Virus record (IMG/VR): IMGVR_UViG_3300029107_000039 | DNA: 18,596 nucleotides | Strand: one strand, 5' to 3' | From: a virus | Taxonomy: Duplodnaviria > Heunggongvirae > Uroviricota > Caudoviricetes | Shown here: one piece after another, positions 37 to 15,406 of the stretch | Numbering within the stretch: the first letter of the stretch is position 1 | Layout of the letters: each line of letters opens with the position of its first letter | The notes under the pieces: model-generated | What the model was told of the DNA's origin: nothing | Database searches by the model: none | Seen by the model: only the letters and a program-made list of their open reading frames with translations | Translations under genes and position numbers: made by a program

Positions 37-96
37 ACCACCTCCCTAGGAGGTGGTTTAGGGATAACAATAAAAAAGCCAGCGGGCGCTGGCTTC
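37..96. terminator. Tandem hairpins, probable bidirectional rho-independent terminator at the leader-distal end of array A
   Basis: Hairpin 37-57 (ACCACCTCC-cta-GGAGGTGGT, 9-bp stem). Hairpin 78-93 (GCCAGC-gggc-GCTGGC) preceded by A6 at 72-77, which is T6 after the hairpin on the minus strand, and followed by TTCGTTT on the plus strand. Confidence 0.45.
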
Positions 97-97
97 G

Positions 98-2119: not shown

Positions 2120-2130
2120 AAACAAATCCT

Positions 2131-4617
2131 TTAGCGACAAATATAAACTTTATTCTCATCAATAACGTTATCAAAGGTAATAGTGCAGAATTGTTCCTGC
2201 TGTTTATTAACCGAGACGCGAATCGCCGCGGGAACATCATTGGTGCGAATAAATATCCGACTTCCCTGTCCTACCAAGCCCACATTGTTGCCGCTTTCAT
2301 CTTCAACCTCATAACCAAACGGCAACGGAGAGCCATCAGGGCGTTGGGAGATGAAATACCAAGGCTTGCGTTTATCAGTCTCAAACTGCGTCATCACTAC
2401 CGCACCACGATAAGGAACGGTGTTTTTACGGTTACCCAGTAGCGCCACATCGCTTTTACTGTCGGCAATATCCAACATCAACGTATTTTCACGATACGGC
2501 GTCAGGTTGTCATAAATAGCGTAGCCTCTGCTATCCGTGGTCAGGTAACGATATCCCTGCACCGCTGCTCCCTCCAGTCCCGGCGCTTTGACGATGGCGA
2601 ACGTATCAGAAAGTCTGGGAGCCAGTGCCACCCCGTCCGACCACGCGACTAAACCGCCTTGAATATTACCGCTAATCTGTTGATATCTTTTCGACTGGCT
2701 ATAGCTGCCACCAATGGTCGCCAATGGCGCACGCCAGGTCAGGTTTCCACCTGCGGTTGTTTCGCTACCCTGTTGCTGATGGCTTAAGTTAGCCCCGTAG
2801 CTGAACTGATCGCGACTCCCCGCTACACCGCTGAGACTGGTATTATTCGACCGATAGCCGTCTTTATCAAAAGTGGTCGAGTTAGAAACAAATAAATCTC
2901 GTCGTTTTTCAGTGATTCCATCGCCCCACGAGAAGGGAATTGAGAAATATAAGTTAATGCGTCTATCTTCGCGGTTATCTTCATCGTAAGTCTGGCTAAC
3001 AGACAAGGTATAACTAAGGCGTTCCCAGGAGTTCGAATAGCTGAGTTGATAATCTTTCCCTGTCCCGCTGCGTTCCCAATAATCCCGCCATTGACCGCTG
3101 ACCGACAGATATCCCCAATCATCTGGTAATGACTGGTTTATATTTACAGAAAAGCTGTTCTTGCGACCAAAATCGTACTGATAATAGTCGGCAATGTCAT
3201 AAACAGAGTCATCTTCTCGATTATATCTATTCCTGTTATTTGCCCATACGTGATCGTTAAAAGTACGATAATCCCGAGAGGAGTAACGCCAGGCCGCCAG
3301 AGAAAATTGCGTCCCACTCTGTGAGAGATATTTGTTCCAGGCAATCTGATAACTTTGACCATTAAATACATCACCGTTATCTTGTTCACTGTGGGAATGG
3401 GTAAAATCAACCGATACAGCACCAATCGGTGTATTCCATCCCGTGCCGAGAACAAACGATGAGTAATTATCAGACAACTGCGTGCCAGCATAGAGAGTCA
3501 GCAAATTATTAAGGCCATACTGATAGCTTCCCTGAATAAAATCCGACTGATTGCTGGCTCCCTCAATACGACTACGTCCGGCAGCAAATTCATATTTCGA
3601 AACGCCCGGTTGCAACATATTTGGTACAGATGAATAAGGTACACGATAACGCGATACCGAACCGTCAGCTTCTTTAACAGTAACTTCCAGATCGGCACCA
3701 CCACCAGCAAGTTGCAAATCATCAATGGCGAATGGACCTGGTGGAACCTCCTTCTGGTAAATAACAAAACCATTTTGTTCTATAGTGACGAGTGCGTTGC
3801 TCTGGGCAATTCCTCGCACTATAGGAGTAAAATTCTGTTTAGAGTTCGGCAACATCTGCATATCGCGCCAGAGGCGTACCCCGCGAAAACGCACGGAGTC
3901 AAAAACATCAGAGCCGGTATACATTTCACCAGCACGCAATGTGCCAAGAATTTGTGGAATTCCGCGCTCCAGATATAACGTGTTACTCTTCCATTTACCG
4001 CTGCTCTGGTCACTTTTCGTATAATTGGCATTTGAATGCAACTGCCAGCCCAGAAGATTCAAACCACTGTTCAGATTTAAATAGCTACTTTTATTATCTC
4101 CTCCGTGCTTATAATTACTGTAATACTGACTGGCATAATAAGATGTATATAATGCGTTAATCCCGCGATCCCATGCCTCAGGCGGGACATATCCGCGTTC
4201 ATACTCAACGACATAGGCTTGGGGTACACTTAACTTCAGGTTAAAATGCCCAATATCATAGTCAACGCTGCCGCCCTGTACCGCTTCCCGAAGTGGTACA
4301 CATTCTACGCTTTTATCGATATTAATGCCTTCTGTGAGGATACCTATTTGCTTTAACTGCTCCCAGGATAAACATGTTGCATCCGGATCATCTTTAATAT
4401 CGACATTATAATGTCCGCGCCACTGATTATTCAGGTATACATCCATATCATAGATACCGGGCATCGGCTTATTACTATCGATATGATAGTCAGAAATTTT
4501 TTCCCCATTTAATCCGCCAATCATAAAATGGGTGTCAAATGTTTCATCTTCCGCCCATGCAGACGAAGTTGCCAACACCGACAGGATAGCCAGCGTAATA
4601 GAATTAAGTTTAGACAT
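2131..4617 (-). CDS. Fimbrial outer-membrane usher protein
   Basis: About 828 aa from the ATG at 4617 (MSKLNSITLAILSVLATSSAWA signal peptide; CAGGGA RBS). Length and composition are typical of chaperone-usher ushers, with a C-terminal Cys pair (CTITFDNVIDENKVYICR). Sits between the chaperone and adhesin genes. Confidence 0.9.
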   Translation of the reverse strand: MSKLNSITLAILSVLATSSAWAEDETFDTHFMIGGLNGEKISDYHIDSNKPMPGIYDMDVYLNNQWRGHYNVDIKDDPDATCLSWEQLKQIGILTEGINIDKSVECVPLREAVQGGSVDYDIGHFNLKLSVPQAYVVEYERGYVPPEAWDRGINALYTSYYASQYYSNYKHGGDNKSSYLNLNSGLNLLGWQLHSNANYTKSDQSSGKWKSNTLYLERGIPQILGTLRAGEMYTGSDVFDSVRFRGVRLWRDMQMLPNSKQNFTPIVRGIAQSNALVTIEQNGFVIYQKEVPPGPFAIDDLQLAGGGADLEVTVKEADGSVSRYRVPYSSVPNMLQPGVSKYEFAAGRSRIEGASNQSDFIQGSYQYGLNNLLTLYAGTQLSDNYSSFVLGTGWNTPIGAVSVDFTHSHSEQDNGDVFNGQSYQIAWNKYLSQSGTQFSLAAWRYSSRDYRTFNDHVWANNRNRYNREDDSVYDIADYYQYDFGRKNSFSVNINQSLPDDWGYLSVSGQWRDYWERSGTGKDYQLSYSNSWERLSYTLSVSQTYDEDNREDRRINLYFSIPFSWGDGITEKRRDLFVSNSTTFDKDGYRSNNTSLSGVAGSRDQFSYGANLSHQQQGSETTAGGNLTWRAPLATIGGSYSQSKRYQQISGNIQGGLVAWSDGVALAPRLSDTFAIVKAPGLEGAAVQGYRYLTTDSRGYAIYDNLTPYRENTLMLDIADSKSDVALLGNRKNTVPYRGAVVMTQFETDKRKPWYFISQRPDGSPLPFGYEVEDESGNNVGLVGQGSRIFIRTNDVPAAIRVSVNKQQEQFCTITFDNVIDENKVYICR

Positions 4618-4631
4618 AATCAATCCCTGAT

Positions 4632-5312
4632 CTATTTGACGGTTTTTATTTTTTCACTCAAATAGTTTCCATTATCATCAATCAGCGTAACATTGTAATG
4701 GCTAACAACGGAGGCCGTGGTGACGGTCTGTTCTGACCAGGGAGCTAGTACCAGCGTTTCTTTATTTACTTTGGTATTACCTGTCAGTTCGGGAATAGTT
4801 ATCCAGTTCGCTGAATTATTTTTTATATTGATACCACCACTGACAGGTCTGATATTCAGTCGAGAAAAACTCCCTTTATCGACACCTGCTATACCTTCCG
4901 GACGATAAATAAATTTAATGCGGTTTTGCATCGCGAATTTAATCTGGTTTTTACTCTCATTTTTCTCACTATTAGGTGGAATATCCAGGACATTGAGAAA
5001 GAACAAGCTTTCGCGATCTTTAGGTAGGGTATTCGTCAGTTGCTTAATTTTAAGTTGCTGCCCCCCTCCTCCTTTTACGTGAGCTACCGGTGGCGTCAGC
5101 ACAAACGGAACATGAATTTTTTCTGGGGGCAGGCTGGTATCGCCATCATCAATCCACGACTGAATCAGAGCACTGCGCTCACCTTCATTCATTAATTGAA
5201 CGGTAATCTCTTTTTTCTGTTCTGGATAAATAACGCGAGTGCCGTAGATATAGACTCCGCCCCACACAGGCGTGACCATGCCGACCAGCAAAAAGGCTAT
5301 TAACTTTTTCAT
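4632..5312 (-). CDS. Periplasmic fimbrial chaperone (PapD-like)
   Basis: 226 aa from the ATG at 5312 (AAGGAG RBS 8 nt upstream). Signal peptide MKKLIAFLLVGMVTPVWG. PapD-family-like N-terminal region (TRVIYPEQKKEITVQLMNEGERSALIQSWIDDGD). Confidence 0.9.
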   Translation of the reverse strand: MKKLIAFLLVGMVTPVWGGVYIYGTRVIYPEQKKEITVQLMNEGERSALIQSWIDDGDTSLPPEKIHVPFVLTPPVAHVKGGGGQQLKIKQLTNTLPKDRESLFFLNVLDIPPNSEKNESKNQIKFAMQNRIKFIYRPEGIAGVDKGSFSRLNIRPVSGGINIKNNSANWITIPELTGNTKVNKETLVLAPWSEQTVTTASVVSHYNVTLIDDNGNYLSEKIKTVK

Positions 5313-5333
5313 GGCAACACTCCTTGTTGTAAA

Positions 5334-5352
5334 ATATCGGCGGCAGCCGCCG
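5334..5352 (-). other. Intercistronic hairpin between the major-subunit and chaperone genes
   Basis: ATCGGCGGC-a-GCCGCCGAT, a perfect 9-bp GC-rich inverted repeat between the subunit stop (5365) and the chaperone start (5312), with no strong T-run. Resembles the mRNA-stabilising or attenuating stem-loops found after major pilin genes. Confidence 0.4.
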
Positions 5353-5364
5353 ATAAGCAAAGTA

Positions 5365-5907
5365 TTAATCTGTTACGACAGTCATTGTCAACGCAGATTT
5401 AACATCACCAGAGGTCACTGAAGTATCAGATTTTGCATATCTTGCACTAAAGTTAAGCGTATATAAGTCATTCGTATCTTTCCCATTTAATTCAATAACT
5501 CCATCCTTTGTAATTCTCTTTTCCTCATCATTATTAACATAATAGACAGCAAACCCAGCGCCATTATTCGAAGCAGTATTAACCGTAATATTGTCATAAG
5601 AGTCAACAAATTGCGAACTAGAAAACGTAATTCTTGGCGTTTTATCTCCGGTACATTTAACTTTCAGAGGCACGGTAGTTTTATTTGAATAAGTATCAAC
5701 GGTACTGCCAACAGTTACATTTTCGAATTGATCAGCACCAATTTCGTTCATCGCAATTGTTGCAGTAGTACCGTCAATAAATTGACATGTAGTCCCCACG
5801 ACTTTACCGGTAATAATTAACTCCCCCTGTTGATTCCCTTCTGCAAATGCTCCTGCACTCATAAAAAGAGATGATAATACCGCAACTGCAATAATTGAAT
5901 GTTTCAT
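5365..5907 (-). CDS. Fimbrial major subunit (pilin)
   Basis: 180 aa. Signal peptide MKHSIIAVAVLSSLFMSAGAFA. Cys pair (TCQF ... KVKCTG) typical of pilins. First gene of the operon, with AAGGA RBS; followed by chaperone, usher and adhesin. Confidence 0.85.
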   Translation of the reverse strand: MKHSIIAVAVLSSLFMSAGAFAEGNQQGELIITGKVVGTTCQFIDGTTATIAMNEIGADQFENVTVGSTVDTYSNKTTVPLKVKCTGDKTPRITFSSSQFVDSYDNITVNTASNNGAGFAVYYVNNDEEKRITKDGVIELNGKDTNDLYTLNFSARYAKSDTSVTSGDVKSALTMTVVTD

Positions 5908-6323
5908 AGTCTATTCCTTAACTAATTTGCTTTACCTTAATAAGAGATATCAATCTCCTGACAAGAAACTTCTCAAAACGAAGATGTTGTAGCAATGTAA
6001 ATTATTTGTTTTCGTGACTTACATCAAATTATTTTAATTTAACACCGGAGAGAAATATTACACTACAAATATTTCCTAAGTTTATTTTATTTAATAATCG
6101 CATTTCTAATCAGAACAATAATAATGCTGGTTATTATTAGTCACCCAAATTCATATTTTTATGATTCGAGATAGATAATAAAAATTATTTTTAGCGAAGA
6201 AGACAACCTCCCTGATATGAACAACAACTATCGAACGCACTCAAGTTCCGCTTCTCAACGACCTGATCACACGGCAAAAAAAAGCCCAACCACACGGTCA
6301 GGCCTGTCCGAAATTGCAAACTA
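5908..6323 (-). promoter_or_regulatory. AT-rich upstream regulatory region of the fimbrial operon (promoter not pinpointed); also holds the csy4-distal A8/T8 tract
   Basis: 416 nt with no ORF of 60 aa or more, very AT-rich, containing AATAATAA-tgctgg-TTATTATT palindrome around 6115-6140. An A8 run at 6276-6283 is T8 on the minus strand, 40-47 nt after the csy4 stop; it may be part of a csy operon terminator but no clean hairpin was found. Confidence 0.35.
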
Positions 6324-6878
6324 TCAAAACCAGGGAATAGTTGCTGTTGCGCTTAATCCATAACTACTGAATTCCCCTTTCACCGGTTCAGTGAGCAAAT
6401 CACCATGACGGATAAACAGCTTGAACTGTTGCTGACTCGATAAACTCTTCATATTGAGAAAGGGTAAATCGGTCCGCCGTTCAGTTTGCGTCGCCAGTCG
6501 CTCAATTGCCTGTTCTTTAGTGAGCCAGCCCTTTTTTACTGAACGCCTTAACAGACGCAGGGGGTTACTTTTAACCTGCACACGGCTTACCACTCGCCAG
6601 CCTTTTATTTCAGGAATAGGAGTGACAGGTGAACATTGGCAATAGTCCGTAAGTCCTTTACGCCACGTTGAGGCTTCAAGCGCCTGCAATGCCGGGGCGC
6701 TGCCGTGTAAGCGTAAACGCGCTCCCGGCGTAACATTCACGTCCGGGAAACTCACGCCGATATCACCTTGCCCTCTTGCGCCTAATGCCCGGTGCAATTT
6801 GGCAAATAACGCTGCCATCAACATTTCACTCGAAAATTCAGGATCTGGCAGAACGCGGATCTCAAGGTAGTGCTCCAT
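6324..6878 (-). CDS. cas6f: Csy4 / Cas6f crRNA endoribonuclease
   Basis: 184 aa from the ATG at 6878 (AAGGAG RBS): MEHYLEIRVLPDPEF...AKLHRALG (conserved His)...FIRHG...YGLSATATIPWF. Closely resembles Pseudomonas Csy4 as recalled. The ORF track extends to 6920 using an upstream alternative start. Confidence 0.9.
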   Translation of the reverse strand: MEHYLEIRVLPDPEFSSEMLMAALFAKLHRALGARGQGDIGVSFPDVNVTPGARLRLHGSAPALQALEASTWRKGLTDYCQCSPVTPIPEIKGWRVVSRVQVKSNPLRLLRRSVKKGWLTKEQAIERLATQTERRTDLPFLNMKSLSSQQQFKLFIRHGDLLTEPVKGEFSSYGLSATATIPWF

Positions 6879-6888
6879 TGGCAGCTCC

Positions 6889-7890
6889 TTATTCCGCTTT
6901 CTCACCAAAGACACCGCCACGGATCAGCACTGCCATCACGTAGTGCTGTTGATCAACGTCTGGTTTCATCCCTTTAGTCACCCAATTGTCCAGTAAGGTA
7001 TAAAAATCGAGTTTTTCTTTCGGTTGGCGGCAGGCCACACCGCGACTGGTTACAGAACCGTAAGGTTCCACGGCGATAGCCCCCAACTCATCAACCTTCG
7101 GATGCCAGGTGTCAATAGTACGTAAAGCGTTGCCAATTTTTTGGGAGTGAATACCGGCAATGCCTGCAACCTGGTACAACACGCGACTTTTGCTACTGTT
7201 GCTGTCGAGCACCAGTTCCTGTGATGGGAAGACTTCTTGCCCGGCACCGAGGCGAACCTGCGCTTCAACGGTAAGCATCACCCACTCTTTTCCGCTTAAT
7301 CCTTGTTCAATTATTGTCGCCAGTTCTGTGACGCTACTCTGGCCTTGATCAAATTGACGCAAGGAGAAGTCATGACTGTTAAAAGTCCAGGACGAATCAT
7401 TAGCAGTAACTTTCACCTGGATCTGCTCAGCACCAATGCGGTTGCGCCACAAAAAACGACCATTTGCCAGATTCAGCGCATAGCGAAGCGCCAGCTCTTT
7501 AAAACCATGCTCGCTGATATAGCCGTCAATAACGTCGGAAAGCGCCTCCTGATAGGCCATATCATTACATACTGAAGGTGAAGATAAATTACCCAGCACT
7601 CGCAGCGTAAACACCACTTTTAGCGTATCAGCATCTACCGGAAGCGAGGCTACATCTACCCGCTGCAAGTTGGCTTTTTGGATTTCAGCATCCAGTTTGG
7701 TGGGGTCACTGGTAATCGTGTTTTTCAGGCGATTAGAAATGGTTCCGCGAACCGCTTTTTCCTGAATCTCAATGGGTTGCCATTCATTTCCTTGCCAGTT
7801 ACCTGCGTACATCGCCGCGTCAGACGTTGCCAGTTTGCGTTCAAATGCCAGTACCGACGCCGTTTTTATTGCTACAGGGGCCTTTGCCAT
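6889..7890 (-). CDS. cas7f: Csy3 / Cas7f Cascade backbone subunit
   Basis: 333 aa from the ATG at 7890 (AAGGAC RBS): [20 protein letters not shown]...[10 protein letters not shown]...LIRGGVFGE. Csy3-like. Stop at 6889, 11 nt before the csy4 start. Confidence 0.9.
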
Positions 7891-7900
7891 AATTATGTCC

Positions 7901-8824
7901 TTATTCTGAATCGTCATCTTCATTAGTAGTAGGGTCGTCAACGAGTGGTATTGCCGAGCAATAGTAGCCAGTGTCCGTCGTACGATAGCGCCACATCAGC
8001 GGTTGCAAATCAGTAATGCGATGTAATCCACGCCATTCGCCAATGCCATAAACCGCTTCGGCAAAGGCAAATGGCGTCACGGTATCGCGCGCATTTTCAA
8101 CTTCACCGGGAGCGTAAACAGGAGATATGCGTTGGTAACCGCACATTAACGGTACCAGGAAACCAGGCATTGGCTTCGGCTGGTATACCCATTGTGCGCT
8201 GTTGTCTTCTGCCGGAGATTCGGCCTGATATTTAATCGTGGCAAAATCAAGCCAGGCATCAAGCAACGATATGTCGGGATGTTGTTGGTGATGTTCAGCC
8301 AGCCATTCGCTGCGGTCGTAAAGCGCGTAACCTGGCATTAAACGCCAGATGATTTTACGCAGTTGCTTTTCATCTTCAGGCGCATGAAAAAGCTGAGGAT
8401 CGCGCATGTCAACAATGCTGCCGCCCGCCAGTTTGTGGCTCTGGCAGAGCATTTTCAGATGGTCACAAAGGGCTTTTCTACCGTATTCACCATTGGTAAT
8501 TTCGCCATTACATTCAATCAGCAGAGAGACCGTCAGGTGCATACGCCCCTCTTCATTAAATGAGGCGGTTTTACCTTCTCTGGTTAGTGGATTACGGGTG
8601 AGAGCGAACTGAAAATCGCGCCCGGAGCTGTACGCCTGAATATGTTGTTCATGGCTAACGACCGCGCAACCGTCAAAACTTACGCCAAATTCATCCACCA
8701 CTTTGCGAGAAAGCGCATGAACATAGCCGAGAAAATGGGTCATCGACGGGAATCCCCAGGTCAACCCGGAGACAGCGTTGGCGTTTTCGATACGTACATG
8801 GGGTAACAAGAGCAGATAACTCAT
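7901..8824 (-). CDS. cas5f: Csy2 / Cas5f Cascade subunit
   Basis: 307 aa: [27 protein letters not shown]...NPLTREGK...LHLTVSLL...GEWRGLHRI. Csy2-like. Its ATG overlaps the csy1 stop (ATGA at 8821-8824). Confidence 0.9.
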
Positions 8825-10128
8825 TTCAGCGCCTCCTGCAAAACGGCTTCCATTTCACGCATCCGTTGAGCGAACAGGGACTGACTGCGCCACTCTTTTT
8901 GCTCGATAGCACCTACATCGAAACTGGCTTTTTTCAGGCGATAGTTCAGCCAGCGCGCGAAATCCTCGGCCACCTTACCCTGCCAGTCGTTTTTTTCACG
9001 CTCCAGTTTGAAAGCCTCATCTGACAGGCTTCGCCACGGATCCAGCCACAGTTGCTGGTGGCGCGGTAAGGCTGGTGATTGCGCGGACCATCCCTGCCAT
9101 TTTTCTTGTTGAAAAGAGGATGCCTGCATAAACAGCAAATCTATCAACTCATCAATATATTTCGCCCGTGTGGTACGGATATGAACATTATTTTTGTCAA
9201 CTTTCAGAAGATAGGTCATACGGGCGATAATGCCCGAGGCCGCCCGATTGAAATCGCCACGTAAGGCAAAAATACTGCGCATGTTTTGTGGTGCGCGATC
9301 CAGCGCCGCCCAGGTGGGCGGCATTGATGGCAACAGCCAGACACGGCCAACTCTGGCACTGTTTAGCAGGGAGATATTCTGTTGATTTCCACCTCCATAA
9401 TGCATCTCTGCAAGATTCGGGAAACGAATATCTGGCTGTGAGTGCCATTTACCTGCTTTGTGCGCATCGCGAATAGCTTTTGATTCCTCGCTAAAGCGCA
9501 CGGCAGTTAGCTTTTCATACATCACCTGTGCCAGCGAACTGGAAAACAGCGGGCAGAGCAGATGATAGCCATCATCGACAGGGAAATAGATTTGCTTCGA
9601 AAGTTTATGTGCTTTTATCCACTCCGAAGCATATGCTTCACTAAAGCATTCAACCCATTGTTTTAATTGTTCATCATCCAACGCAAAGGCATTTAATGAT
9701 TGATAATCACCACGTTTTAAGCTGGCGAGTAATGAATCACCGTTGGCTTCCGTTAGCAGTAGTTTTGCAACATCAAAAACGGCTGCATTGCCTTCAGCAT
9801 CCTCTTTAATAATTGCCAGTGATGCTGTATTTAAATATCCCTCGCTGACGAATTTCTCCAAATAACGCCCATATGCTTTGGAGTCACCATTACTATATTT
9901 TGCCCCGTGGGAGATTATCCTTATAGAACGAACACGTTTCGCCGCATCCGTTAACCAGTTACGTGGCAGGTAGCGTGCTTCGAGTTCCTGTCGCTCCAGA
10001 GCGATAACGCTGGCGTCCTCGCCCTGTTCCAACCGCTTTGCTGCTTCTTTTTCAAAGGCTTCGATCTTGGGTTGCCTTCGCGAAGCGATGTAGTCAGTGA
10101 TAAATTGTATTAGCGCCGTTTTTTCCAT
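8821..10128 (-). CDS. cas8f: Csy1 / Cas8f large Cascade subunit
   Basis: 435 aa. ATG at 10128 with AAGGAG RBS. Csy1-like motifs (KQIYFPV, GGGNQQNISLLNS, WLLPSMPP, QQLWLDPWR). First gene after the 324-nt gap following cas2-3. Confidence 0.9.
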   Translation of the reverse strand: MEKTALIQFITDYIASRRQPKIEAFEKEAAKRLEQGEDASVIALERQELEARYLPRNWLTDAAKRVRSIRIISHGAKYSNGDSKAYGRYLEKFVSEGYLNTASLAIIKEDAEGNAAVFDVAKLLLTEANGDSLLASLKRGDYQSLNAFALDDEQLKQWVECFSEAYASEWIKAHKLSKQIYFPVDDGYHLLCPLFSSSLAQVMYEKLTAVRFSEESKAIRDAHKAGKWHSQPDIRFPNLAEMHYGGGNQQNISLLNSARVGRVWLLPSMPPTWAALDRAPQNMRSIFALRGDFNRAASGIIARMTYLLKVDKNNVHIRTTRAKYIDELIDLLFMQASSFQQEKWQGWSAQSPALPRHQQLWLDPWRSLSDEAFKLEREKNDWQGKVAEDFARWLNYRLKKASFDVGAIEQKEWRSQSLFAQRMREMEAVLQEALK

Positions 10129-10195
10129 CTCGGCTCCTTTCGTTAATCCATCAAATTGAAGTTGCTCCCTGACTTCACTGAAAAATCTCCGTAGC

Positions 10196-10258
10196 CTAAC
10201 CAGACTTCAGTACAACGACACACACAGCAAAAGGGGCAACGCCCGTGGTGATAATCAT
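10196..10258 (-). other. Candidate 20-codon hydrophobic mini-ORF (MIITTGVAPFAVCVVVLKSG) with SD, immediately downstream of the crRNA-like target site
   Basis: Minus strand AGGTGA-actatcc-ATG ATT ATC ACC ACG GGC GTT GCC CCT TTT GCT GTG TGT GTC GTT GTA CTG AAG TCT GGT TAG. Below the 60-aa ORF-track threshold. Could be chance. Confidence 0.2.
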
Positions 10259-10268
10259 GGATAGTTCA

Positions 10269-10281
10269 CCTAGAGGTATCT
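10269..10281. promoter_or_regulatory. Predicted Cascade binding site: CC PAM plus 11-nt seed match to the spacer of the crRNA-like element
   Basis: Plus strand CC-TAGAGGTATCT at 10269-10281 equals PAM plus spacer positions 1-11 of the mini-array spacer (10400-10410). The match begins exactly at spacer position 1 and is lost from position 12 onward. Confidence 0.6.
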
Positions 10282-10288
10282 ACGTTTT

Positions 10289-10316
10289 AATCTAGTTAAA
10301 CCCATGAAATAACCAA
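10289..10316 (-). promoter_or_regulatory. Candidate minus-strand promoter whose predicted start abuts the Cascade target site (may drive the mini-ORF and/or csy1-4)
   Basis: Minus strand TTGGTT (plus 10311-10316), 16-nt spacer, TAGATT (plus 10289-10294); predicted TSS near 10281. Hexamers are weak; by-eye call only. Confidence 0.2.
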
Positions 10317-10342
10317 GAGTGATATTACCATGCATAAAATAT

Positions 10343-10371
10343 TTGCAACACAATGGTTTAATAACTAACAT
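10343..10371 (+). promoter_or_regulatory. Candidate plus-strand promoter for the crRNA-like RNA
   Basis: TTGCAA (10343-10348), 17-nt spacer, TAACAT (10366-10371); the predicted start falls inside the first pseudo-repeat, just before its hairpin. By-eye call only. Confidence 0.25.
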
Positions 10372-10452
10372 TCACGCACTGCCATCGGCAGCTTAGAAAT
10401 AGAGGTATCTCCGGATACGGACTTGTAAACTGCCGTACAGGCAGCTAACCCA
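10371..10452 (+). ncRNA. crRNA-like mini-array (pseudo-repeat, 25-nt spacer, pseudo-repeat), inverted relative to the cas genes; candidate Cre-type regulatory RNA
   Basis: Pseudo-repeat 1 (10371-10399) TTCAC-gca-CTGCC-atc-GGCAG-CTTAGAAA keeps the Cas6f hairpin stem and an exact 8-nt 5' handle. Spacer-like TAGAGGTATCTCCGGATACGGACTT (10400-10424). Pseudo-repeat 2 (10425-10452) GTAAA-CTGCCGTACAGGCAG-CTAACCCA has a perfect hairpin with degenerate flanks and ends at the cas2-3 stop codon. Confidence 0.65.
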
Positions 10453-13400
10453 TCACAGGTTGCGAAACACACCTAACCAGGGGTGATAACGCCAGTCATC
10501 GACCGCATCTTCTTCACTGGCCGGTACTCTCACTTCAGCAAACATTTCTCCAACACGCTGTATTTCACAACTTTGCTTATCAGCTAAATTCAACAAAACG
10601 TGTTGGTAATCCATCACGCCCCAGCAAGCGACGCCGCTGGCGCATCTCACCTCTTCTCGCCTGAAATTCCCTTGCGCTTTACGCTCGTTGTCGCCCGTGC
10701 GGGAATAGAAACGCGCTTCGCTTTCTTCATCATCCATATGCAGAAAAAACACTGCCTCCGGCAAAGGGGAATAACGAAATGGCGTCTGGCGCTGCATCCA
10801 GCCGTTCCAGCTTAGCGGTGCACGCCACCATTGCGCCGCCACCACATGTTTGCTTTTACTGCTCATCAATTCAGCGGATAAACGACTATGCTCAAGCTCC
10901 GCCAGTTTGTTGTCATTATTGGCAGACAGGATCCGCGGCAAGGCGTTAATCGTCCGGTAGTCCGCGATCGGAATCAGTTCGCAAATATCGTGGCTATTAA
11001 GCAAGTGTTCTTTTGTTTCGAAACCAGGCTTACAAAATGCGGGGGCTTTTTTCTGCAATGATTTGATATTACTACGCAAAATAACCAGATTCTCACTAGT
11101 CGGCACATTTCTACGGTGGCGCTGAATACGTCCGGCAAATTGAATTATCGAACGCATGGAGCTTGGTTCGATAATTCCCCAGTCCGCATCCCAGTCACGC
11201 CCCACCTCTATAACCGATGTCCCCAACACCACAAACAGATGGTGCGATTCCGGACGGTTATGTAAGGCTTCAGCAATATCCTCGTTGTTCCAGAAATCGA
11301 GTTCGTTATGGCGGGTAAAAGCGCGGTCCAGGCGCTTCTCAATATCTGAACGTACTGCCAGTGGATGTCGGGAGTGGTAAACACAATAATGAATGCAGAC
11401 ATCTTCTGGTGATGGAATGGCGATCAGGGCTTTGGTCACTGCGACCAGTGGATTGATATTCGCGAAGCGCACCAGGCCCAGCGAAACGGTTTTACCGCTT
11501 TCTTGCTGCTGGCGATGTGCCTGATGCAACTTCAGCATTTGCGCATGTACCGTCTGAGCCACGCTTTCGGTAACATCCTGAATCGCGTTTGATGCAGATG
11601 AAATAGAAGCAATACGTCCGAAATGCAGTCGTTCTTTTTCGGCCAACATTAACGCTCGTCGCGCAACAAACTTTTTGTGCGTCTCACGAAAAGTAGCGCC
11701 ATCGCCAATTTGTATGGCGTCGGCATCTTTTTCATCAAACCAGGCACAGCAAATATTGACGGGTCTGCCGTTCGTACCGCATGACGACTGCCACATTTTA
11801 CGCCCGGCAAGATAAGCCGCGAACAGCGCCTGAATCAGCCCTGGCGGCAACGTCGCGGAAGAAAGTAATACCCGCGTTCCCAACATTCCGGCCCAATTCA
11901 TCAGACGACATACTGCATGAAGATCGGCAATATCAAAGTCGTCAGGTTCATCGAGCACTAAATCGCTGGTTAACAAACGCAACATCGAAGGAAGCTGTTT
12001 TCCGCCTCGCACACCTTCGGTCGCAGAAATAAGATGATCAATGGTTGCTACCAGAATCGGTGCGCTTACTAACGCCTTAAGTTTGCTGTCATCCTTCAAC
12101 CATTTTTCCAGCGCCCCGGTATGCAGACTACCTTCATATTTAACAAACTGTTGCTCCTCTGCCAGCGATTCTTGCGAAGCACTTCCGCAATCATTGTCTG
12201 TTTTTTCCTGCTGCCACAGTTGCTTAACTGCCGCCGAACCAATCAGTACCGCCAGCTCATCCTCACCCAGTCCAAGCCGACTGCGCAGAGCATCGCCGGT
12301 TTGCAAAGTCAGCGTGCGCAATCCCAGCGCGACGGTAAAACGGCACCCTTCCCGCTCATCGGTAAGCGCATACATAATGCGGGCGTTAGCAAAGGTTTTA
12401 CCGCACCCCGTCGAGGCCATATTGACACCGAAAAAACCGTCTTCCCGGCTTCGCTCACGTAACGCACGTGCCACATCCCAGGCTTTATCCTGCCAACGAT
12501 ATTTCGCGTCTGTGGCCCGTTGGCTAAAGCCTTTATGTCGGGCAATTGCCGGAAGCGATGCACGTGTGTGCATCAGTTGCCGCCCAAGTAGATACGCATG
12601 ATGCGCGACGCCGACCAGATGCTCATCTACCCGTTGTTTGAGCGTGCCGCTCTGCCGATCGCTATTTGCCCAGACGATATAATTCGGGTCTTGCCATTTT
12701 TGCTGCGCGTCGTTAGATGAATAGTAGTGATCGGCAAGCATCAGGCAAAAACGCGCCATATGTAACGGAAACAGTTGCTCCATCTGCCCCCATTCCTTTA
12801 GGCCGATCGCGTTACACGCCCTACGGGCAATCTGACGCGCTTTTTCTCGCCAGCTCGCGCTTTGAAGCGGCGTTCCTGACGGAAATTGCCAGACTTGCTC
12901 GAAATCCTGTTGTGACCAGTCATTCTTACGGTGGTTAACGGCATTCCAGTCAGCATTGAGTTGTTTCTCCAGCCAACTATCACAGCCTTTACATGATTGT
13001 TCCGGTTGTGGCGAAAGATTCTCCGGCATTCGATGATGGGAAAGGATCAACCAGCCTACCGTTTTGGCGAGTGGTTGCAGCGAACTGAATGGACTATTTG
13101 AAAAATGAGGCGTGTCTTTTTGCAGGCACTCAAGGATCGCGGTTTCATCATCTGCCGTTAATTTCCCAAGTTTTTCCAGCCACACTTCGTCTGGCTGTTC
13201 ACCGACAAAAGCCTGAAAAAGCCGCAGCGAAATCCACTCATGCCGATAAGGCTGATAACTGCGGGCATTCTTTTGGGTCAGGCTTTGCTGAAAGCTGCGT
13301 CCTGCTTTACCAAAATCATGAAATAACCCAGCGATAGCCGCCAGCAGCGCAATACTTTCCGCGCACTGCCAGCGATTTTCTTCTTTTTTCACCAGGCTGG

Positions 13401-13686
13401 TTTGCGTTGTTCGATTTGTGGGAACGCGTCCCTGAGCATTAAAACGACGAATATTGCCGACAATCCACATCAACTCCGTTTGCCCATTCTTCTTCAGCCA
13501 GTGACAAGCCACTGCGGTATTTCGCCGGGCAGTTTTGCGCAGTAAACGGCGAAGTGTATTAACCCCTTCCAGAGTAATCACCGTTTGCCATGCGGCGTCA
13601 CCAGTGCGTTCGGCAAATTGATCAATAATACGGCAGCTCTCCACTCGAGCATTTTTTGTGCAGCGCGAGATAATCAGGACGTTCAT
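10453..13686 (-). CDS. cas3: Cas2-Cas3 fusion (type I-F signature nuclease-helicase)
   Basis: 1077 aa. N-terminal Cas2-like region, HD nuclease motif (LFHDFGKAG), helicase Walker A (STGCGKT) and DExD box (LVLDEPDD). Its ATG overlaps the cas1 stop (ATGA at 13683-13686). Confidence 0.95.
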   Translation of the reverse strand: MNVLIISRCTKNARVESCRIIDQFAERTGDAAWQTVITLEGVNTLRRLLRKTARRNTAVACHWLKKNGQTELMWIVGNIRRFNAQGRVPTNRTTQTSLVKKEENRWQCAESIALLAAIAGLFHDFGKAGRSFQQSLTQKNARSYQPYRHEWISLRLFQAFVGEQPDEVWLEKLGKLTADDETAILECLQKDTPHFSNSPFSSLQPLAKTVGWLILSHHRMPENLSPQPEQSCKGCDSWLEKQLNADWNAVNHRKNDWSQQDFEQVWQFPSGTPLQSASWREKARQIARRACNAIGLKEWGQMEQLFPLHMARFCLMLADHYYSSNDAQQKWQDPNYIVWANSDRQSGTLKQRVDEHLVGVAHHAYLLGRQLMHTRASLPAIARHKGFSQRATDAKYRWQDKAWDVARALRERSREDGFFGVNMASTGCGKTFANARIMYALTDEREGCRFTVALGLRTLTLQTGDALRSRLGLGEDELAVLIGSAAVKQLWQQEKTDNDCGSASQESLAEEQQFVKYEGSLHTGALEKWLKDDSKLKALVSAPILVATIDHLISATEGVRGGKQLPSMLRLLTSDLVLDEPDDFDIADLHAVCRLMNWAGMLGTRVLLSSATLPPGLIQALFAAYLAGRKMWQSSCGTNGRPVNICCAWFDEKDADAIQIGDGATFRETHKKFVARRALMLAEKERLHFGRIASISSASNAIQDVTESVAQTVHAQMLKLHQAHRQQQESGKTVSLGLVRFANINPLVAVTKALIAIPSPEDVCIHYCVYHSRHPLAVRSDIEKRLDRAFTRHNELDFWNNEDIAEALHNRPESHHLFVVLGTSVIEVGRDWDADWGIIEPSSMRSIIQFAGRIQRHRRNVPTSENLVILRSNIKSLQKKAPAFCKPGFETKEHLLNSHDICELIPIADYRTINALPRILSANNDNKLAELEHSRLSAELMSSKSKHVVAAQWWRAPLSWNGWMQRQTPFRYSPLPEAVFFLHMDDEESEARFYSRTGDNERKAQGNFRREEVRCASGVACWGVMDYQHVLLNLADKQSCEIQRVGEMFAEVRVPASEEDAVDDWRYHPWLGVFRNL

Positions 13687-14666
13687 TGGTCAGCCTTAGC
13701 CAGGGCCTGAGCCGTTTCCTGCAGAGAGGTGATCATGACATCCAGCGCATCCGCTTGTTGAAAGATATTGATGCAGCGTTGACGAAACTCCTGAGCATCT
13801 TCTCCCGCCATTGCAGCGATAAATGCTTGTGGCATAACAAGGGCATCTTTAATCAGATCGGCAAGGTCAAAAACGAGACCACCGCGACGGGTTTTACCGT
13901 GCATTACTGCTAAACCGTGCGGGATCCCGGTTACCCACGCCGCCACTGCCGCCAGGCCATACGCCAGATAATTACCCTGATCGAGGAAGCGGTTGGCCAT
14001 ATCAACTCCGCCACCCCGTTTTGCACGAGTAAAGTCGCCGTAGCCCACGGATTGACTCACCATTTTGTAGAGTGCTTTGGTCAATTTCGCCTCTACGAGC
14101 ATAAGCTGCGTATGGCTTTCTGCCATGTCTATTTCTTCACGAGTGCGATTTAGCAGAGTCTGCAGCGCACTGGCATCAGGTTGAAAGGCGTGTTCACGCT
14201 GCATTTTCGCGCTGGTCCAGTACTTATCAATATGTGTCAGACGAATTAACTGAAAACGTTTCGCGGCGGCAAGGCGTTTGTCTTCAACAAACCAAAAAGA
14301 AACCCACTGCTGAAGATATTCAGTAGGACGATATTCGCTTTGCGGACTGAGCCAGGAGACATCAACATCAACTTCATTTGCCGAATACAGCGGCGTGCCA
14401 TCCGTACCACAAAAACCCACCATCACTCCAGCATGGGCAAATTCACGCATCGCCGCCTGGGTAACGGACGTTCCCATCCCCAACATCAACGCCGTGGTAT
14501 TCGCAATGGGGATATTCCAGTAATACGACTCCTTGCCTTCACTGGTGACATACTCCACTCGCCCACCATTCACCTGCACCCGGCATTTTTCCAGATAATA
14601 AATATTGGCACGCCTGGAGTGGAGAATGGTTTTGAGATCAGAAGGAGTAAGGTAATTTGAAGACAT
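13683..14666 (-). CDS. cas1: Cas1 integrase (type I-F)
   Basis: About 327 aa from the ATG at 14666 (AGGA RBS): MSSNYLTPSDLKTILHSRRANIYYL...NIPIANTTALMLGMGTSVTQAAM...HGKTRRGGLVFDLADLIKD. Strongly Cas1-like. The ORF track begins at an upstream GTG at 14672. Confidence 0.95.
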   Translation of the reverse strand: MSSNYLTPSDLKTILHSRRANIYYLEKCRVQVNGGRVEYVTSEGKESYYWNIPIANTTALMLGMGTSVTQAAMREFAHAGVMVGFCGTDGTPLYSANEVDVDVSWLSPQSEYRPTEYLQQWVSFWFVEDKRLAAAKRFQLIRLTHIDKYWTSAKMQREHAFQPDASALQTLLNRTREEIDMAESHTQLMLVEAKLTKALYKMVSQSVGYGDFTRAKRGGGVDMANRFLDQGNYLAYGLAAVAAWVTGIPHGLAVMHGKTRRGGLVFDLADLIKDALVMPQAFIAAMAGEDAQEFRQRCINIFQQADALDVMITSLQETAQALAKADQ

Positions 14667-14837
14667 AAACACATCCTGTGATTATTTTTATTTGAAGGAG
14701 TTAGGATTAGTACAGCATTGATTTCTGTGTGAGAAATTGATTCTCGTCGCAATTATCACAATTGTTATTGTGTGTCACAGCTAATGGTTCGGAGTTGAGA
14801 GCGCCATAACGCAGCTAAATTTCTGCCATCATCGTAT

Positions 14838-15406
14838 TTGTGAAACTGCCTGTACGGCAGTGAACTGAGGTGCTTTTGACGGCCGTCCATGCCTTTGCTT
14901 TCTAAGCTGCCTGTACGGCAGTGAACCAGAACTGGATCGACAATGAATTCGGGGATCTTTTCTAAGCTGCCTGTACGGCAGTGAACTACGACCTGTTAAA
15001 AACAGACAGTGACGGCATTTTCTAAGCTGCCTGTACGGCAGTGAACTTTTTTGAGGTTGATTATGAGTGAGCCAGCCTTTTCTAAGCTGCCTGTACGGCA
15101 GTGAACGTGGTTGGCATGGCGCTCCCTGAGTCGAAAGATTTCTAAGCTGCCTGTACGGCAGTGAACAGGCAGAAGAAGAAATGGATGTAACTCACAATTT
15201 TCTAAGCTGCCTGTACGGCAGTGAACAATAACGCCCGCGACGGCGACCGGTAAAACGTTTTCTAAGCTGCCTGTACGGCAGTGAACTAGCAACAGGTGCG
15301 GAAAGTGGCGCAATACCCTTTCTAAGCTGCCTGTACGGCAGTGAACGTGTTGTTAGCCGCGCCATGTGCTTTCCTCCGTTTCTAAGCTGCCTGTACGGCA
15401 GTGAAC
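14838..15406 (-). CRISPR. Type I-F CRISPR array B: 10 repeats including a degenerate leader-distal repeat, 9 spacers; upstream of cas1
   Basis: Repeats start at 14838 (degenerate: TTGTGAAA instead of TTTCTAAG), 14899, 14959, 15019, 15079, 15139, 15199, 15259, 15319, 15379. Spacers of 32-33 nt at 14866-14898, 14927-14958, 14987-15018, 15047-15078, 15107-15138, 15167-15198, 15227-15258, 15287-15318, 15347-15378. Leader on the right. Confidence 0.95.

What the first reader, a model, noticed from the sequence alone, without database searches (positions are those of the whole stretch)
10196..10258. Hydrophobic 20-codon mini-ORF with SD directly downstream of the predicted Cascade site (possible toxin or leader peptide)
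Minus strand AGGTGA-7 nt-ATG opens a 20-codon ORF encoding MIITTGVAPFAVCVVVLKSG, which is strongly hydrophobic, like small membrane-active type I toxin peptides. It lies between the Cascade target and csy1. In CreTA-type modules the crRNA-like antitoxin represses a small toxin gene by exactly this geometry, which would make the cell dependent on keeping functional Cascade genes. Alternatively it is a leader peptide of the csy1-4 transcript, or chance. It is too short to appear in the ORF track.
Basis: inference. Interest (0 to 1): 0.55.

Follow-up and report, generated by a model that had tools for sequence, protein, structure and literature searches.

The report
Mini-ORF in a Cascade-repressed csy leader
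The 20-codon hydrophobic mini-ORF is really there, just downstream of a self-targeting site of a crRNA-like mini-array in an Escherichia type I-F CRISPR locus, but related loci do not conserve it, so it is more likely part of a self-regulated csy leader RNA than a toxin.

Summary
ATG 10258-10256 opens a 20-codon ORF (MIITTGVAPFAVCVVVLKSG, TAG 10198-10196). AGGTGA lies 7 nt upstream and overlaps the PAM of a Cascade site.

The site is credible. A two-repeat mini-array on the plus strand (10371-10452, opposite to the cas genes) keeps the CTTAGAAA handle. Its 25-nt spacer matches CC + TAGAGGTATCT (10269-10281). Across 15 Escherichia variants, positions 1-5 and 7-11 always pair, 6 and 12 are free, and position 5 co-varies. 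This is the published CreR/CreA class of type I-F mini-arrays.

The toxin reading is weak:
- This window is one of only two of the 15 variants with a stop at codon 21; six others read 27 codons.
- 201 of 239 E. coli I-F genomes lack the ATG and SD region, and the sequenced variants of this type carry a 1-nt frameshift.
- Synonymous excess is not significant.
- Hydrophobicity follows from GT-rich sequence.
- No terminator separates the ORF from csy1.
- An E. ruysiae genome with an IS in csy1 still has the ATG mini-ORF.
- The ORF start is the 3' arm of a leader hairpin kept in four diverged sequence classes.

Best reading: Cascade autorepression of a structured csy leader. An RNA-type CreT toxin is not excluded.

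The parts
10453..13686 (-). cas2-3 (Cas3f), the upstream neighbour; its stop is TGA 10455-10453
   Evidence: Pfam Cas3_I-F_Cas2, Cas3_HD and Cas3-like_C domains; ORF list
10425..10452 (+). psiR2 of the mini-array, GTAAACTGCCGTACAGGCAGCTAACCCA. The hairpin is identical to the canonical repeat; the handle part is degenerate.
   Evidence: 15/15 match to the hairpin CTGCCGTACAGGCAG on the plus strand, whereas both true arrays carry it on the minus strand. Rfam CRISPR-DR4 scores 22.7 bits on the plus strand against 15.3 on the minus. blastn to the array repeats.
10400..10424 (+). psiS, a 25-nt spacer-like guide, TAGAGGTATCTCCGGATACGGACTT
   Evidence: Read from the sequence. Its first 11 nt plus positions 13-14 match the target. 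The seed is conserved in 15 variants.
10371..10399 (+). psiR1, TTCACGCACTGCCATCGGCAGCTTAGAAA. It has a degenerate 5' part, a 5-bp hairpin and an intact 8-nt handle CTTAGAAA.
   Evidence: Compared with the canonical repeat GTTCACTGCCGTACAGGCAGCTTAGAAA. Rfam CRISPR-DR4 19.8 bits on the plus strand.
10343..10371 (+). Predicted promoter of the crRNA-like gene: TTGCAA, 17 nt, TAACAT
   Evidence: Best plus-strand candidate in my relaxed scan. It falls below the stricter tool threshold. The TTG of the -35 and the -10 are kept in all variants. Inference only.
10322..10348 (-). Predicted csy-sense promoter: TTGCAA, 15 nt, TGgTAATAT (extended -10)
   Evidence: Best minus-strand candidate. The TAATAT hexamer is kept in 12 of 14 variants, with a single-base change in v6 and v8. 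The -35 is poorly kept. The TSS is not known, so this is inference.
10246..10315 (-). Predicted 5' leader hairpin. The 5' arm UGGUUAUUUCAUGG pairs with CCAUGAUUAUCACCA, which is the mini-ORF start codon and codons 2-5. The Cascade site and SD lie inside the loop.
   Evidence: The same architecture is predicted in four sequence classes that are only 41-66% identical here. z-scores are -2.1, -5.1, -1.0 and -2.4. One position reads U.C, U-A or G-C in different classes.
10269..10284 (+). Cascade (Csy) target: PAM CC 10269-10270 and protospacer 10271-10284. Positions 1-11 and 13-14 match psiS; position 12 does not.
   Evidence: The PAM plus seed occurs once in the window, against 0.06 expected. Pairing pattern and co-variation.
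10266..10271 (-). SD-like AGGTGA, 7 nt before the ATG. It overlaps the PAM complement.
10196..10258 (-). The mini-ORF of the finding: 20 codons plus TAG
   Evidence: Comparative data.
10161..10240 (-). Predicted long leader hairpin (GUUGCCCCUUUUGCUG ... CAGUGAAGUCAGGGAGCAAC). It spans mini-ORF codons 7-20 and the start of ORF2.
   Evidence: Window-only MFE. No broken pair in 14 sequences, but no compensatory change either. Variable columns are depleted in paired positions, 6/66 against 12/41, p=0.015. The MFE of the whole leader is not unusually stable (z = -0.15).
10143..10178 (-). Second small ORF: GTG, 11 codons (MKSGSNFNLMD), then TAA 14 nt before the csy1 ATG. In the 27-codon variants its GTG overlaps the mini-ORF stop (GTGA).
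   Evidence: Present in all nine sequences examined and in L033. The region is nearly invariant, so coding cannot be tested.
8821..10128 (-). csy1 (cas8f), first gene of csy1-4 (csy2 7901-8824, csy3 6889-7941, csy4 6324-6920)
   Evidence: Pfam Cas_Csy1 to Cas_Csy4. No terminator-like site between the mini-ORF and csy1.

Best explanation
[quoted passage not shown] The leader is the self-target of a crRNA-like mini-array.

Proposed mechanism:
1. The mini-array (10371-10452) is transcribed on the plus strand, away from csy1.
2. Cas6f would cut it into a roughly 53-nt RNA made of the handle CUUAGAAA, a 25-nt guide and the repeat hairpin.
3. Loaded into the Csy complex, this RNA pairs through its first 11 (+2) bases with the CC-flanked site at 10269-10284. 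That is too little pairing for Cas2-3 cleavage but enough for stable binding.
4. The bound complex sits between the predicted csy-sense promoter (10348-10322) and csy1, and blocks transcription of the leader and the csy genes.
5. The result is negative feedback on the amount of Cascade, of the CreR/CreA type.

The mini-ORF itself is most likely not a conserved peptide gene. Its first codons are one arm of a conserved leader hairpin, and the rest overlaps a second hairpin. If it is translated at all, it would act as a leader ORF.

Basis of each step. Shown from sequence and comparison: the mini-array anatomy, its orientation, the PAM and seed match, the co-variation, and the non-conservation of the ORF. 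Inferred: the promoters and TSS, the processing, the repression, and any translation.
For: Anatomy and strand:
- psiR1 keeps the handle CTTAGAAA 8/8 and psiR2 keeps the hairpin 15/15.
- Rfam CRISPR-DR4 scores best on the plus strand.
- The true arrays lie on the minus strand.

Target:
- CC plus an 11-nt seed is unique in the window, against 0.06 expected.
- In 15 variants positions 1-5 and 7-11 always pair. Position 6 varies independently in spacer and target, and position 12 never pairs, as expected for type I-F.
- Position 5 changed G to T in both spacer and target in the 503025 type and in L033.

The module behaves as a cassette:
- It is absent from the sampled relatives at 64-81% Csy1 identity, where cas2-3 and csy1 abut or are separated by only a short gap.
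- In E. coli it occurs once per genome, only in I-F genomes.

The leader runs into csy1:
- There is no terminator-like site.
- The best promoter candidates are the divergent pair sharing TTGCAA.

Against a conserved peptide:
- 201 of 239 E. coli I-F genomes align only from codon 3 onward.
- The S88 type has no ATG and carries a 1-nt insertion.
- Codon 21 is a stop in this window (TAG) and in L033 (TGA), but TGG in the six other ATG-type variants.
- Synonymous to non-synonymous counts are 7:10 in frame, against 5:12 and 2:15 in the other frames.
- Inside the hypervariable island 10375-10258, the PAM, seed and the two -10 hexamers are kept but the ATG is not.

RNA structure:
- The 5' hairpin recurs in four diverged classes.
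- The long hairpin has no broken pairs, and variation avoids paired sites, p=0.015.

Published precedent:
- Type I-F1 mini-arrays between cas3 and cas8f are transcribed opposite to cas3, with a CC PAM and mismatches at positions 6 and 12. One was shown to repress the Cascade promoter (PMC10120712).
Against: - No experimental TSS exists. The tool's strict promoter scan found nothing, so where Cascade acts relative to RNA polymerase is inferred.
- A weak alternative promoter (TAGATA, 17 nt, CATGAT; 10282-10254) would overlap the target.
- The long-hairpin support rests on one-sided changes only. There are no compensatory pairs, and the leader as a whole does not fold better than shuffles (z = -0.15).
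- Leader conservation equals the local background (cas2-3 third codon positions are 90-94% identical). It is therefore not evidence of function in itself.
- Every variant keeps some SD-like motif followed by a start-type codon about 7-10 nt later (ATG, or TTG/GTG in the S88 type). The codon-position pattern 6/2/8 leans towards coding. Translation, or an RNA-toxin function that depends on initiation signals, cannot be dismissed.
Confidence: 0.6

Rival explanations
1. This is a CreTA addiction module with an RNA-type toxin. The leader RNA (SD, start codon, short ORF and hairpin) is toxic when de-repressed, for example by trapping initiation components or ribosomes, as in the Acinetobacter and P. 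aeruginosa CreT RNAs. The peptide sequence would be irrelevant. Loss or inhibition of Cascade would arrest growth.
For: - The architecture matches published type I-F CreTA modules: creA divergent from an SD plus mini-ORF, the target in between, the TSS upstream of the target in WCHA45, and a promoter shared with csy genes in P. aeruginosa CreTA1.
- An SD-like motif plus a start-type codon about 7 nt later is present in every class even though the frame differs.
- Hairpins accompany the ORF.
- The module is a cassette absent from relatives.
- In E. coli SZQ1, the deletion that removed csy1 and csy2 also removed the module.
Against: - None of the known CreT signatures is present. There are no tandem rare codons and no Pro-Pro-stop; from reading the sequence I also saw no 5-bp hairpin centred on the AUG.
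- The AGG core of the SD is dictated by the PAM and first protospacer base, so its conservation is not independent evidence.
- The predicted folds bury the SD and the start codon.
- E. ruysiae CP112983.1 carries an IS in csy1 yet keeps the promoter -10, the SD and the ATG mini-ORF.
- No terminator defines a separate small RNA.
Confidence: 0.2
2. This is a peptide toxin. The 20-27 residue hydrophobic product inserts into the membrane like type I toxins (Ibs, ShoB, TisB) and is kept silent by Cascade.
For: - The peptide is hydrophobic (GRAVY 1.8 for 20 aa, 1.4 for 27 aa), which is rare in shuffles (0.3%).
- Its size is in the range of known type I toxins (my own knowledge).
- Frame A has the most synonymous changes, 7 of 17.
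- The amino-acid changes are conservative: I/M/L, T/A, A/V.
Against: - The ATG and frame are absent in 84% of E. coli I-F genomes.
- The S88-type variants carry a frameshift.
- Two lineages have nonsense changes at codon 21.
- Hydrophobicity is compositional, since all frames read that way.
- The hydrophobic run is only about 16 residues and contains Gly and Pro.
- There is no Pfam or NCBIfam match.
- There is no paralogue elsewhere in E. coli, plasmids or phages.
- The Cascade-null E. ruysiae genome keeps a near-identical 20-aa ORF.
- Published CreT mini-ORFs act as RNA, not as peptides.
Confidence: 0.07
3. This is a decayed remnant. The mini-array is a dead fragment of a CRISPR array, the seed match is fortuitous, and the mini-ORF is a chance ORF in a plain spacer region.
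For: - ORFs of this length are common by chance (71% of shuffles).
- The region is unannotated in RefSeq.
- Leader conservation equals the background.
Against: - The PAM plus an 11-nt seed next to its own mini-array is expected 0.06 times per window.
- The pairing pattern follows type I-F rules, with co-variation at position 5.
- The handle and the hairpin are kept selectively in the two different repeats.
- The seed and -10 boxes survive within a 53-66% identity island.
Confidence: 0.07

Closest known systems
Regulatory mini-arrays of type I-F1 loci between cas3 and cas8f (Shmakov et al. 2023, PMC10120712) and CreR, the Cas-regulating RNA (10.1101/2023.03.10.532045)
   Same: Two repeat-like units around a short spacer. 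The unit next to the seed keeps the handle. The element is transcribed opposite to cas3. It has a CC PAM, a partial seed match upstream of cas8f, and mismatches at positions 6 and 12. The spacer is shorter than a normal 32-nt spacer. The expected outcome is repression of the Cascade operon without cleavage.
   Different: The tested example was P. aeruginosa YL84. I found no description of the Escherichia element in the texts I could read, and the supplements were not available. Here the target lies about 140 nt upstream of csy1, inside a long structured leader, and apparently downstream of the best promoter candidate rather than in the promoter.
Acinetobacter sp. WCHA45 type I-F CreTA (PMC10097628)
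   Same: It lies in the cas3-csy1 intergenic region. creA is divergent from an SD plus mini-ORF. The CreA target lies between the mapped TSS and the mini-ORF. The start codon is engaged in a hairpin.
   Different: The WCHA45 mini-ORF is 33 bp and conserved among its homologues, and its toxicity was shown to be RNA-based. Here the ORF is 20 or 27 codons, is not conserved across the family, has no sequence similarity, and has not been tested for toxicity.
P. aeruginosa CreTA1/CreTA2 proline-codon toxins (bioRxiv 10.64898/2026.06.02.729485)
   Same: A type I-F locus and the same intergenic position. The guide is 20-26 nt long (25 nt here). Positions 6 and 12 are unpaired. There is an SD plus mini-ORF plus hairpin, and CreT1 shares a promoter with the csy genes.
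   Different: That toxin is a 15-nt ORF with two consecutive Pro codons, a stop and a GC-rich hairpin, and its -35 lies about 30 bp downstream of the target. Here there is a single Pro codon, no such motif, and no convincing promoter downstream of the target.
A. baylyi ADP1 CreP (bioRxiv 10.1101/2024.01.05.574328)
   Same: A Cascade-repressed gene in the cas3-csy1 intergenic region of a type I-F locus.
   Different: CreP is a 103-aa KilAC-domain protein of phage origin. Nothing comparable is encoded here.
Type I toxin-antitoxin peptides of E. coli (Ibs, ShoB, TisB, Ldr; my own knowledge)
   Same: A small hydrophobic ORF whose SD and start are predicted to be buried in 5' UTR structure.
   Different: There is no antisense RNA antitoxin, no conserved ORF, no family match and no paralogues.

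Membership tests
crRNA-like regulatory mini-array (CreR/CreA class) | Two degenerate CRISPR repeats around a spacer-like sequence. The first keeps the 5' handle and the second keeps the Cas6 hairpin. | tested here: met
   psiR1 ends in CTTAGAAA (8/8) after a 5-bp hairpin. psiR2 has CTGCCGTACAGGCAG (15/15) and a degenerate handle. Rfam CRISPR-DR4 gives sub-threshold hits on the plus strand.
crRNA-like regulatory mini-array (CreR/CreA class) | Partial complementarity, in the PAM-proximal seed only, to a nearby site with the cognate PAM | tested here: met
   CC plus 11 nt (and positions 13-14). Unique in the window. The pairing pattern and one co-varying position hold across 15 variants.
CreR (Cas autorepression) | The target lies in or next to the promoter or leader of the effector cas operon, so that binding lowers cas transcription. 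| tested here: inconclusive
   The target lies between the best csy-sense promoter candidate and csy1, with no terminator in between. The promoters are only weak consensus matches and no TSS data exist.
CreR (Cas autorepression) | Experimentally shown Cas- and guide-dependent repression | not testable with these tools
   Needs reporter assays.
CreTA (CRISPR-repressed toxin-antitoxin) | A toxin gene (SD plus mini-ORF) downstream of the CreA target and divergent from creA | tested here: inconclusive
   Present in this window and in 38 of 239 E. coli I-F genomes. In the other 201 the SD and ATG are replaced, with AGGAGA plus TTG/GTG in other frames in the sequenced S88-type variants.
CreTA (CRISPR-repressed toxin-antitoxin) | A known CreT signature: tandem rare codons, Pro-Pro-stop, or an AUG-centred 5-bp hairpin with a conserved loop | tested here: not met
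   The codons are ATG ATT ATC ACC ACG GGC GTT GCC CCT TTT GCT GTG TGT GTC GTT GTA CTG AAG TCT GGT. Judged by eye against E. coli codon usage (my own knowledge), none is a tandem rare pair, and there is only one Pro codon. I also saw no AUG-centred 5-bp hairpin on reading the sequence. Compared.
CreTA (CRISPR-repressed toxin-antitoxin) | Growth arrest or death when Cascade is lost or inhibited | not testable with these tools
   There is an indirect natural case against. E. ruysiae CP112983.1 has an IS in csy1 with the ATG mini-ORF and the -10 intact. One deletion, in E. coli SZQ1, removed the module together with csy1 and csy2.
Type I toxin (small membrane peptide) | A conserved ORF encoding a transmembrane helix | tested here: not met
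   The frame is not conserved. Synonymous to non-synonymous is 7:10, not significant. The hydrophobic run is about 16 residues with Gly and Pro. No family hit.
Type I toxin (small membrane peptide) | A cis- or trans-encoded antisense RNA antitoxin that pairs with the toxin mRNA | not tested
   I did not look for an antisense RNA. The only regulator identified here acts on DNA through Cascade. psiS has the same sequence as the plus strand, so it could in principle pair with the minus-strand leader RNA at the same seed, but I did not test this.

The most novel reading that the evidence does not exclude
The Escherichia type I-F leader could be a new kind of CreT. In this reading a Cascade-repressed toxic element (RNA or 27-residue peptide) is embedded in, and co-transcribed with, the csy1-4 leader. 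Anti-CRISPR inhibition of Cascade would then both boost csy expression and trigger growth arrest. The 20-codon forms (this window and E. ruysiae L033) and the S88 type would be attenuated or inactivated alleles, and this would explain why a csy1-null genome can survive.
Probability: 0.15. Interest if true: 0.7.

Novelty: new member of a known kind. Interest (0 to 1): 0.35.

Why it matters
E. coli type I-F systems (UTI89, LF82, S88, IHE3034, the type strain ATCC 11775, ETEC B7A) are widely used and clinically relevant strains. In all 239 complete E. coli genomes that carry the csy1-4 genes intact, this module is present once.

If the module is a self-repression circuit, it sets the level of Cascade. 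It would also make the system respond to anti-CRISPRs and to crRNA load, as shown for CreR elsewhere. That bears on phage therapy and on the use of the native I-F system as a tool.

If the leader also carries a toxin, it would be an addiction and abortive-infection device in a major pathogen lineage. For the specific claim handed to me, the result is mostly sobering: the mini-ORF is not a conserved gene.

Tried and rejected
- Rfam on the intergenic region gave only sub-threshold CRISPR-DR4 hits and no known leader or sRNA family.
- blastn of the intergenic region against plasmids and phages found no match.
- A 'distant' blastn of the leader against 5,426 E. coli genomes found no second copy anywhere.
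- Pfam and NCBIfam scans of the 20-, 27-, 37- and 21-residue peptides found nothing.
- More distant homologues could not be used to test ORF conservation. The sampled relatives at 64-81% Csy1 identity (Klebsiella, Citrobacter, Pseudocitrobacter, another E. ruysiae) have no comparable intergenic region, and Scandinavium (55%) has an unrelated one.
- I searched for a phage-encoded mimic of the handle plus seed. A 16-base pattern gave only random AT-rich hits, and the 21-base pattern gave none.
- I asked whether the leader derives from a CRISPR leader. Only the two repeat-like units match the arrays.
- I first took the 89-95% leader identity as a sign of selection. A sliding comparison then showed it equals the background of cas2-3 and the csy1 5' end. 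The unusual features are two hypervariable islands.
- RNAalifold and pair counting found no compensatory pair in the long hairpin.
- The strict promoter and terminator scan found nothing.
Full report
**1. What is at the coordinates.**
On the minus strand, ATG at 10258-10256 opens 20 sense codons that end at TAG 10198-10196, giving MIITTGVAPFAVCVVVLKSG. AGGTGA (10271-10266) lies 7 nt upstream.

By itself it is weak evidence. In first-order Markov shuffles of the 324-nt intergenic region, an ATG ORF of at least 20 codons appears in 71% of cases and one with an SD-like motif in 15%. Only the added hydrophobicity (GRAVY of at least 1.5) is rare, at 0.3%. The stretch is GT-rich, and its two other frames also read hydrophobic or Cys-rich. 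The AGG core of the SD is the complement of the PAM plus the first protospacer base, so the Cascade site fixes it.

**2. Context.**
The window is a type I-F locus on the minus strand. It contains clpA, a CRISPR array (about 14840-15405), cas1 (13683-14672), cas2-3 (10453-13686), a 324-nt intergenic region, and csy1-4 (10128-6324). Downstream lie a chaperone-usher fimbrial operon, tRNA-Ser and a second array (100-545). clpA is 93% identical to every E. coli genome, so the source is a non-coli Escherichia. The position between clpA and infA is the known E. coli I-F site (PMC3903273).

**3. The mini-array and its target.**
The canonical repeat is GTTCACTGCCGTACAGGCAGCTTAGAAA on the minus strand. 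The intergenic region holds two repeat-like units on the plus strand.
- psiR1 (10371-10399) has a 5-bp hairpin and an intact CTTAGAAA handle.
- psiR2 (10425-10452) has the complete hairpin CTGCCGTACAGGCAG and a degenerate handle.
- Rfam's CRISPR-DR4 model scores the plus strand higher, 22.7 and 19.8 bits against 15.3.
- Between the two lies a 25-nt guide, TAGAGGTATCTCCGGATACGGACTT.
- Its first 11 bases, and bases 13-14, match 10271-10284, which is preceded by the I-F PAM CC (10269-10270).
- The PAM plus seed occurs once in the window, against 0.06 expected.

The crRNA-like gene therefore points away from csy1. This is the arrangement described for type I-F1 mini-arrays (PMC10120712).

**4. Comparative test of the target.**
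I collected 15 distinct versions of the intergenic region.
- The window itself.
- Five E. coli types from 239 complete genomes.
- E. coli SCPM, E. whittamii and Escherichia sp. E1V33.
- Five further metagenome variants.
- E. ruysiae CP112983.1.

In all of them positions 1-5 and 7-11 pair. Position 6 varies independently in guide and target (G, A or T). Position 12 never pairs. This is the pattern expected if every sixth base is flipped out, as in type I-F. In the 503025 type and in E. ruysiae, position 5 is T in both guide and target. That is one co-varying change. The Cascade site is therefore well supported.

**5. The module is a cassette.**
The sampled relatives at 64-81% Csy1 identity have cas2-3 and csy1 abutting or overlapping, or separated by only a short gap (78 nt in P0004). 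These are another E. ruysiae, Pseudocitrobacter, Citrobacter koseri, Klebsiella oxytoca and unnamed metagenome contigs. The element could therefore only be compared within Escherichia.

**6.
- Eight of the 15 variants keep the ATG. In six of these, codon 21 is TGG and the ORF runs 27 codons (MIITTGVVPFAVCVVVLKPGWATEIFQ). Its TGA overlaps the GTG of a second 11-codon ORF (10178-10143) that ends 14 nt before the csy1 ATG.
- This window (TGG to TAG) and E. ruysiae (TGG to TGA) are two different nonsense variants.
- The seven S88-type variants have no ATG and carry a 1-nt insertion in the middle. The only start-type codons after their AGGAGA are TTG and GTG in other frames.
- Counted over genomes, 38 of 239 E. 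coli I-F genomes have the ATG type. The other 201 of 239, which include UTI89, LF82, IHE3034 and S88, align only from codon 3 onward.
- Among the ATG types, variable columns fall 6/2/8 on codon positions 1/2/3. Synonymous to non-synonymous counts are 7:10 in frame, against 5:12 and 2:15 in the other frames. This leans towards coding but is far from significant.
- There is no family match, no annotation in RefSeq and no paralogue.

**7. RNA structure.**
Folding from just after the TAATAT box gives a 5' hairpin. In it, UGGUUAUUUCAUGG pairs with CCAUGAUUAUCACCA, which is the mini-ORF start codon and the next four codons. The Cascade site and SD lie inside the loop.

The same architecture is predicted for the 503025, S88 and E1V33 classes, although they are only 41-66% identical to the window over this stretch. 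The z-scores are -2.1, -2.4, -5.1 and -1.0. One stem position reads U.C, U-A or G-C in different classes. The amino-acid-changing substitutions at codons 2-4 of variant v6 keep the predicted stem pairing.

A second, long hairpin (10240-10161) has no broken pair in 14 sequences, but no compensatory pair either. Measured against the window-only fold, variable columns avoid paired positions, 6/66 against 12/41, p=0.015. The leader as a whole does not fold better than shuffles (z = -0.15). Evidence for structure is moderate for the 5' hairpin and suggestive for the long one.

**8. A correction to my own first impression.**
The leader is 89-95% identical between types whose first 600 nt of csy1 are only about 75% identical. 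This looked like strong selection. A sliding comparison shows otherwise.
- The background is 90-100% in cas2-3, the mini-array, the leader and the first roughly 170 nt of csy1.
- There are two hypervariable islands: 10375-10258 in the intergenic region, and csy1 codons about 65-175.
- cas2-3 third codon positions are 90-94% identical.

Leader conservation is therefore uninformative. What is informative is what survives inside the intergenic island. The PAM and seed, both -10 hexamers and the hairpin pairing survive. The SD tail, the ATG and the frame do not.

**9. Natural experiments.**
- E. ruysiae CP112983.1 has an IS3-family element inserted after about codon 19 of csy1. It still carries the mini-array (with one stem mismatch in psiR1), the TAATAT box, AGGTGA and an ATG mini-ORF of 20 codons that differs from the window's peptide at three residues. 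This argues against a strongly toxic product once Cascade is lost. The caveats are that it is a single genome, that its shared hexamer is TTTCAA rather than TTGCAA, and that the 20-codon form might be an inactive allele.
- E. coli SZQ1 lost csy1 and csy2 through a deletion that also removed the module. This is compatible with either view.

**10. How it most likely works.**
The plus-strand promoter candidate TTGCAA-17-TAACAT (10343-10371) would drive the mini-array. Cas6f would produce an RNA of about 53 nt. The Csy complex carrying this RNA would bind the 11(+2)-bp seed site without recruiting Cas2-3. It would then block transcription coming from the divergent TTGCAA-15-TGgTAATAT candidate (10348-10322) into the leader and csy1-4. 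There is no terminator in between. This is Cascade autorepression.

The promoters, the processing and the repression are inferred. A weak alternative promoter that overlaps the target (10282-10254) would give promoter occlusion instead.

**11. Comparison with known systems.**
The element meets the sequence-level definition of the CreR/CreA class.

It resembles type I-F CreTA modules in layout. However, it lacks every known CreT signature, and the candidate toxin ORF is not conserved. I therefore do not file it as CreTA.

In the papers I could read, I found no description of the Escherichia element. Large-scale screens report repeat-like sequences in 25-29% of the untranslated regions flanking cas3 in I-E, I-D and I-F1 loci, and probably include it. 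Their supplements were not readable.

**12. Verdict.**
The toxin interpretation is not supported by conservation, and the leader interpretation is favoured. The wider module is a new member of a known kind. An RNA-type toxin embedded in the leader remains possible, at about 0.15-0.2, and would be worth a simple induction experiment.

Noticed in passing
window 9600-9929 (csy1 codons ~65-175): A hypervariable island lies inside csy1. Identity to the E. coli S88 and Rb-50 alleles is 47-80% here, against 83-97% in the flanking csy1 sequence and 90-100% in cas2-3. Combinations of intergenic and csy1 allele classes differ between strains, which points to recombination or diversifying selection on Cas8f.
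   Followed up: partly
window 10143-10178 (-): A second small ORF (GTG, MKSGSNFNLMD, TAA) is preceded by GGAG at 8 nt and is present in every variant examined. In the 27-codon variants its GTG overlaps the mini-ORF stop (GTGA). It ends 14 nt before the csy1 ATG. This could be a translational relay into csy1, but the region is too invariant to test.
   Followed up: partly
window 1247-5907 and 890-977: A yehD-like chaperone-usher fimbrial operon sits between cas6f and tRNA-Ser(GGA) and the second CRISPR array. Among 5,426 E. coli genomes only strain Rb-50 shares most of this arrangement. In E. coli SZQ1, cas6f is followed directly by tRNA-Ser and the array.
   Followed up: partly
L033 4700-6010 (E. 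ruysiae CP112983.1): An IS3-family insertion sequence interrupts csy1 after about codon 19, while cas1, cas2-3, csy2-4 and the mini-array module remain. psiR1 carries an A.C mismatch in its stem.
   Followed up: partly
L034 (E. coli SZQ1, NZ_CP173996.1) 2887-5965: A deletion fuses a truncated cas3f to csy3. It removes the cas2-3 3' end, the whole intergenic module, csy1 and csy2 in one event.
   Followed up: no
window 14840-14870 and 60-100 (-): The last repeat of the cas1-side array is degenerate at its 3' end (GTTCACTGCCGTACAGGCAGTTTCACAA). The other array is followed by a GC-rich hairpin and a T run (AGCCAGCGCCCGCTGGCTTTTTTATT) that looks like an intrinsic terminator.
   Followed up: no
L012 2830-2870 (Scandinavium sp.): A different and shorter cas2-3/csy1 intergenic region carries one repeat-like unit next to the cas2-3 stop, and a TTAGAAA-type handle 19 nt away without an upstream hairpin. 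I saw no PAM-flanked match on reading it by eye.
   Followed up: no
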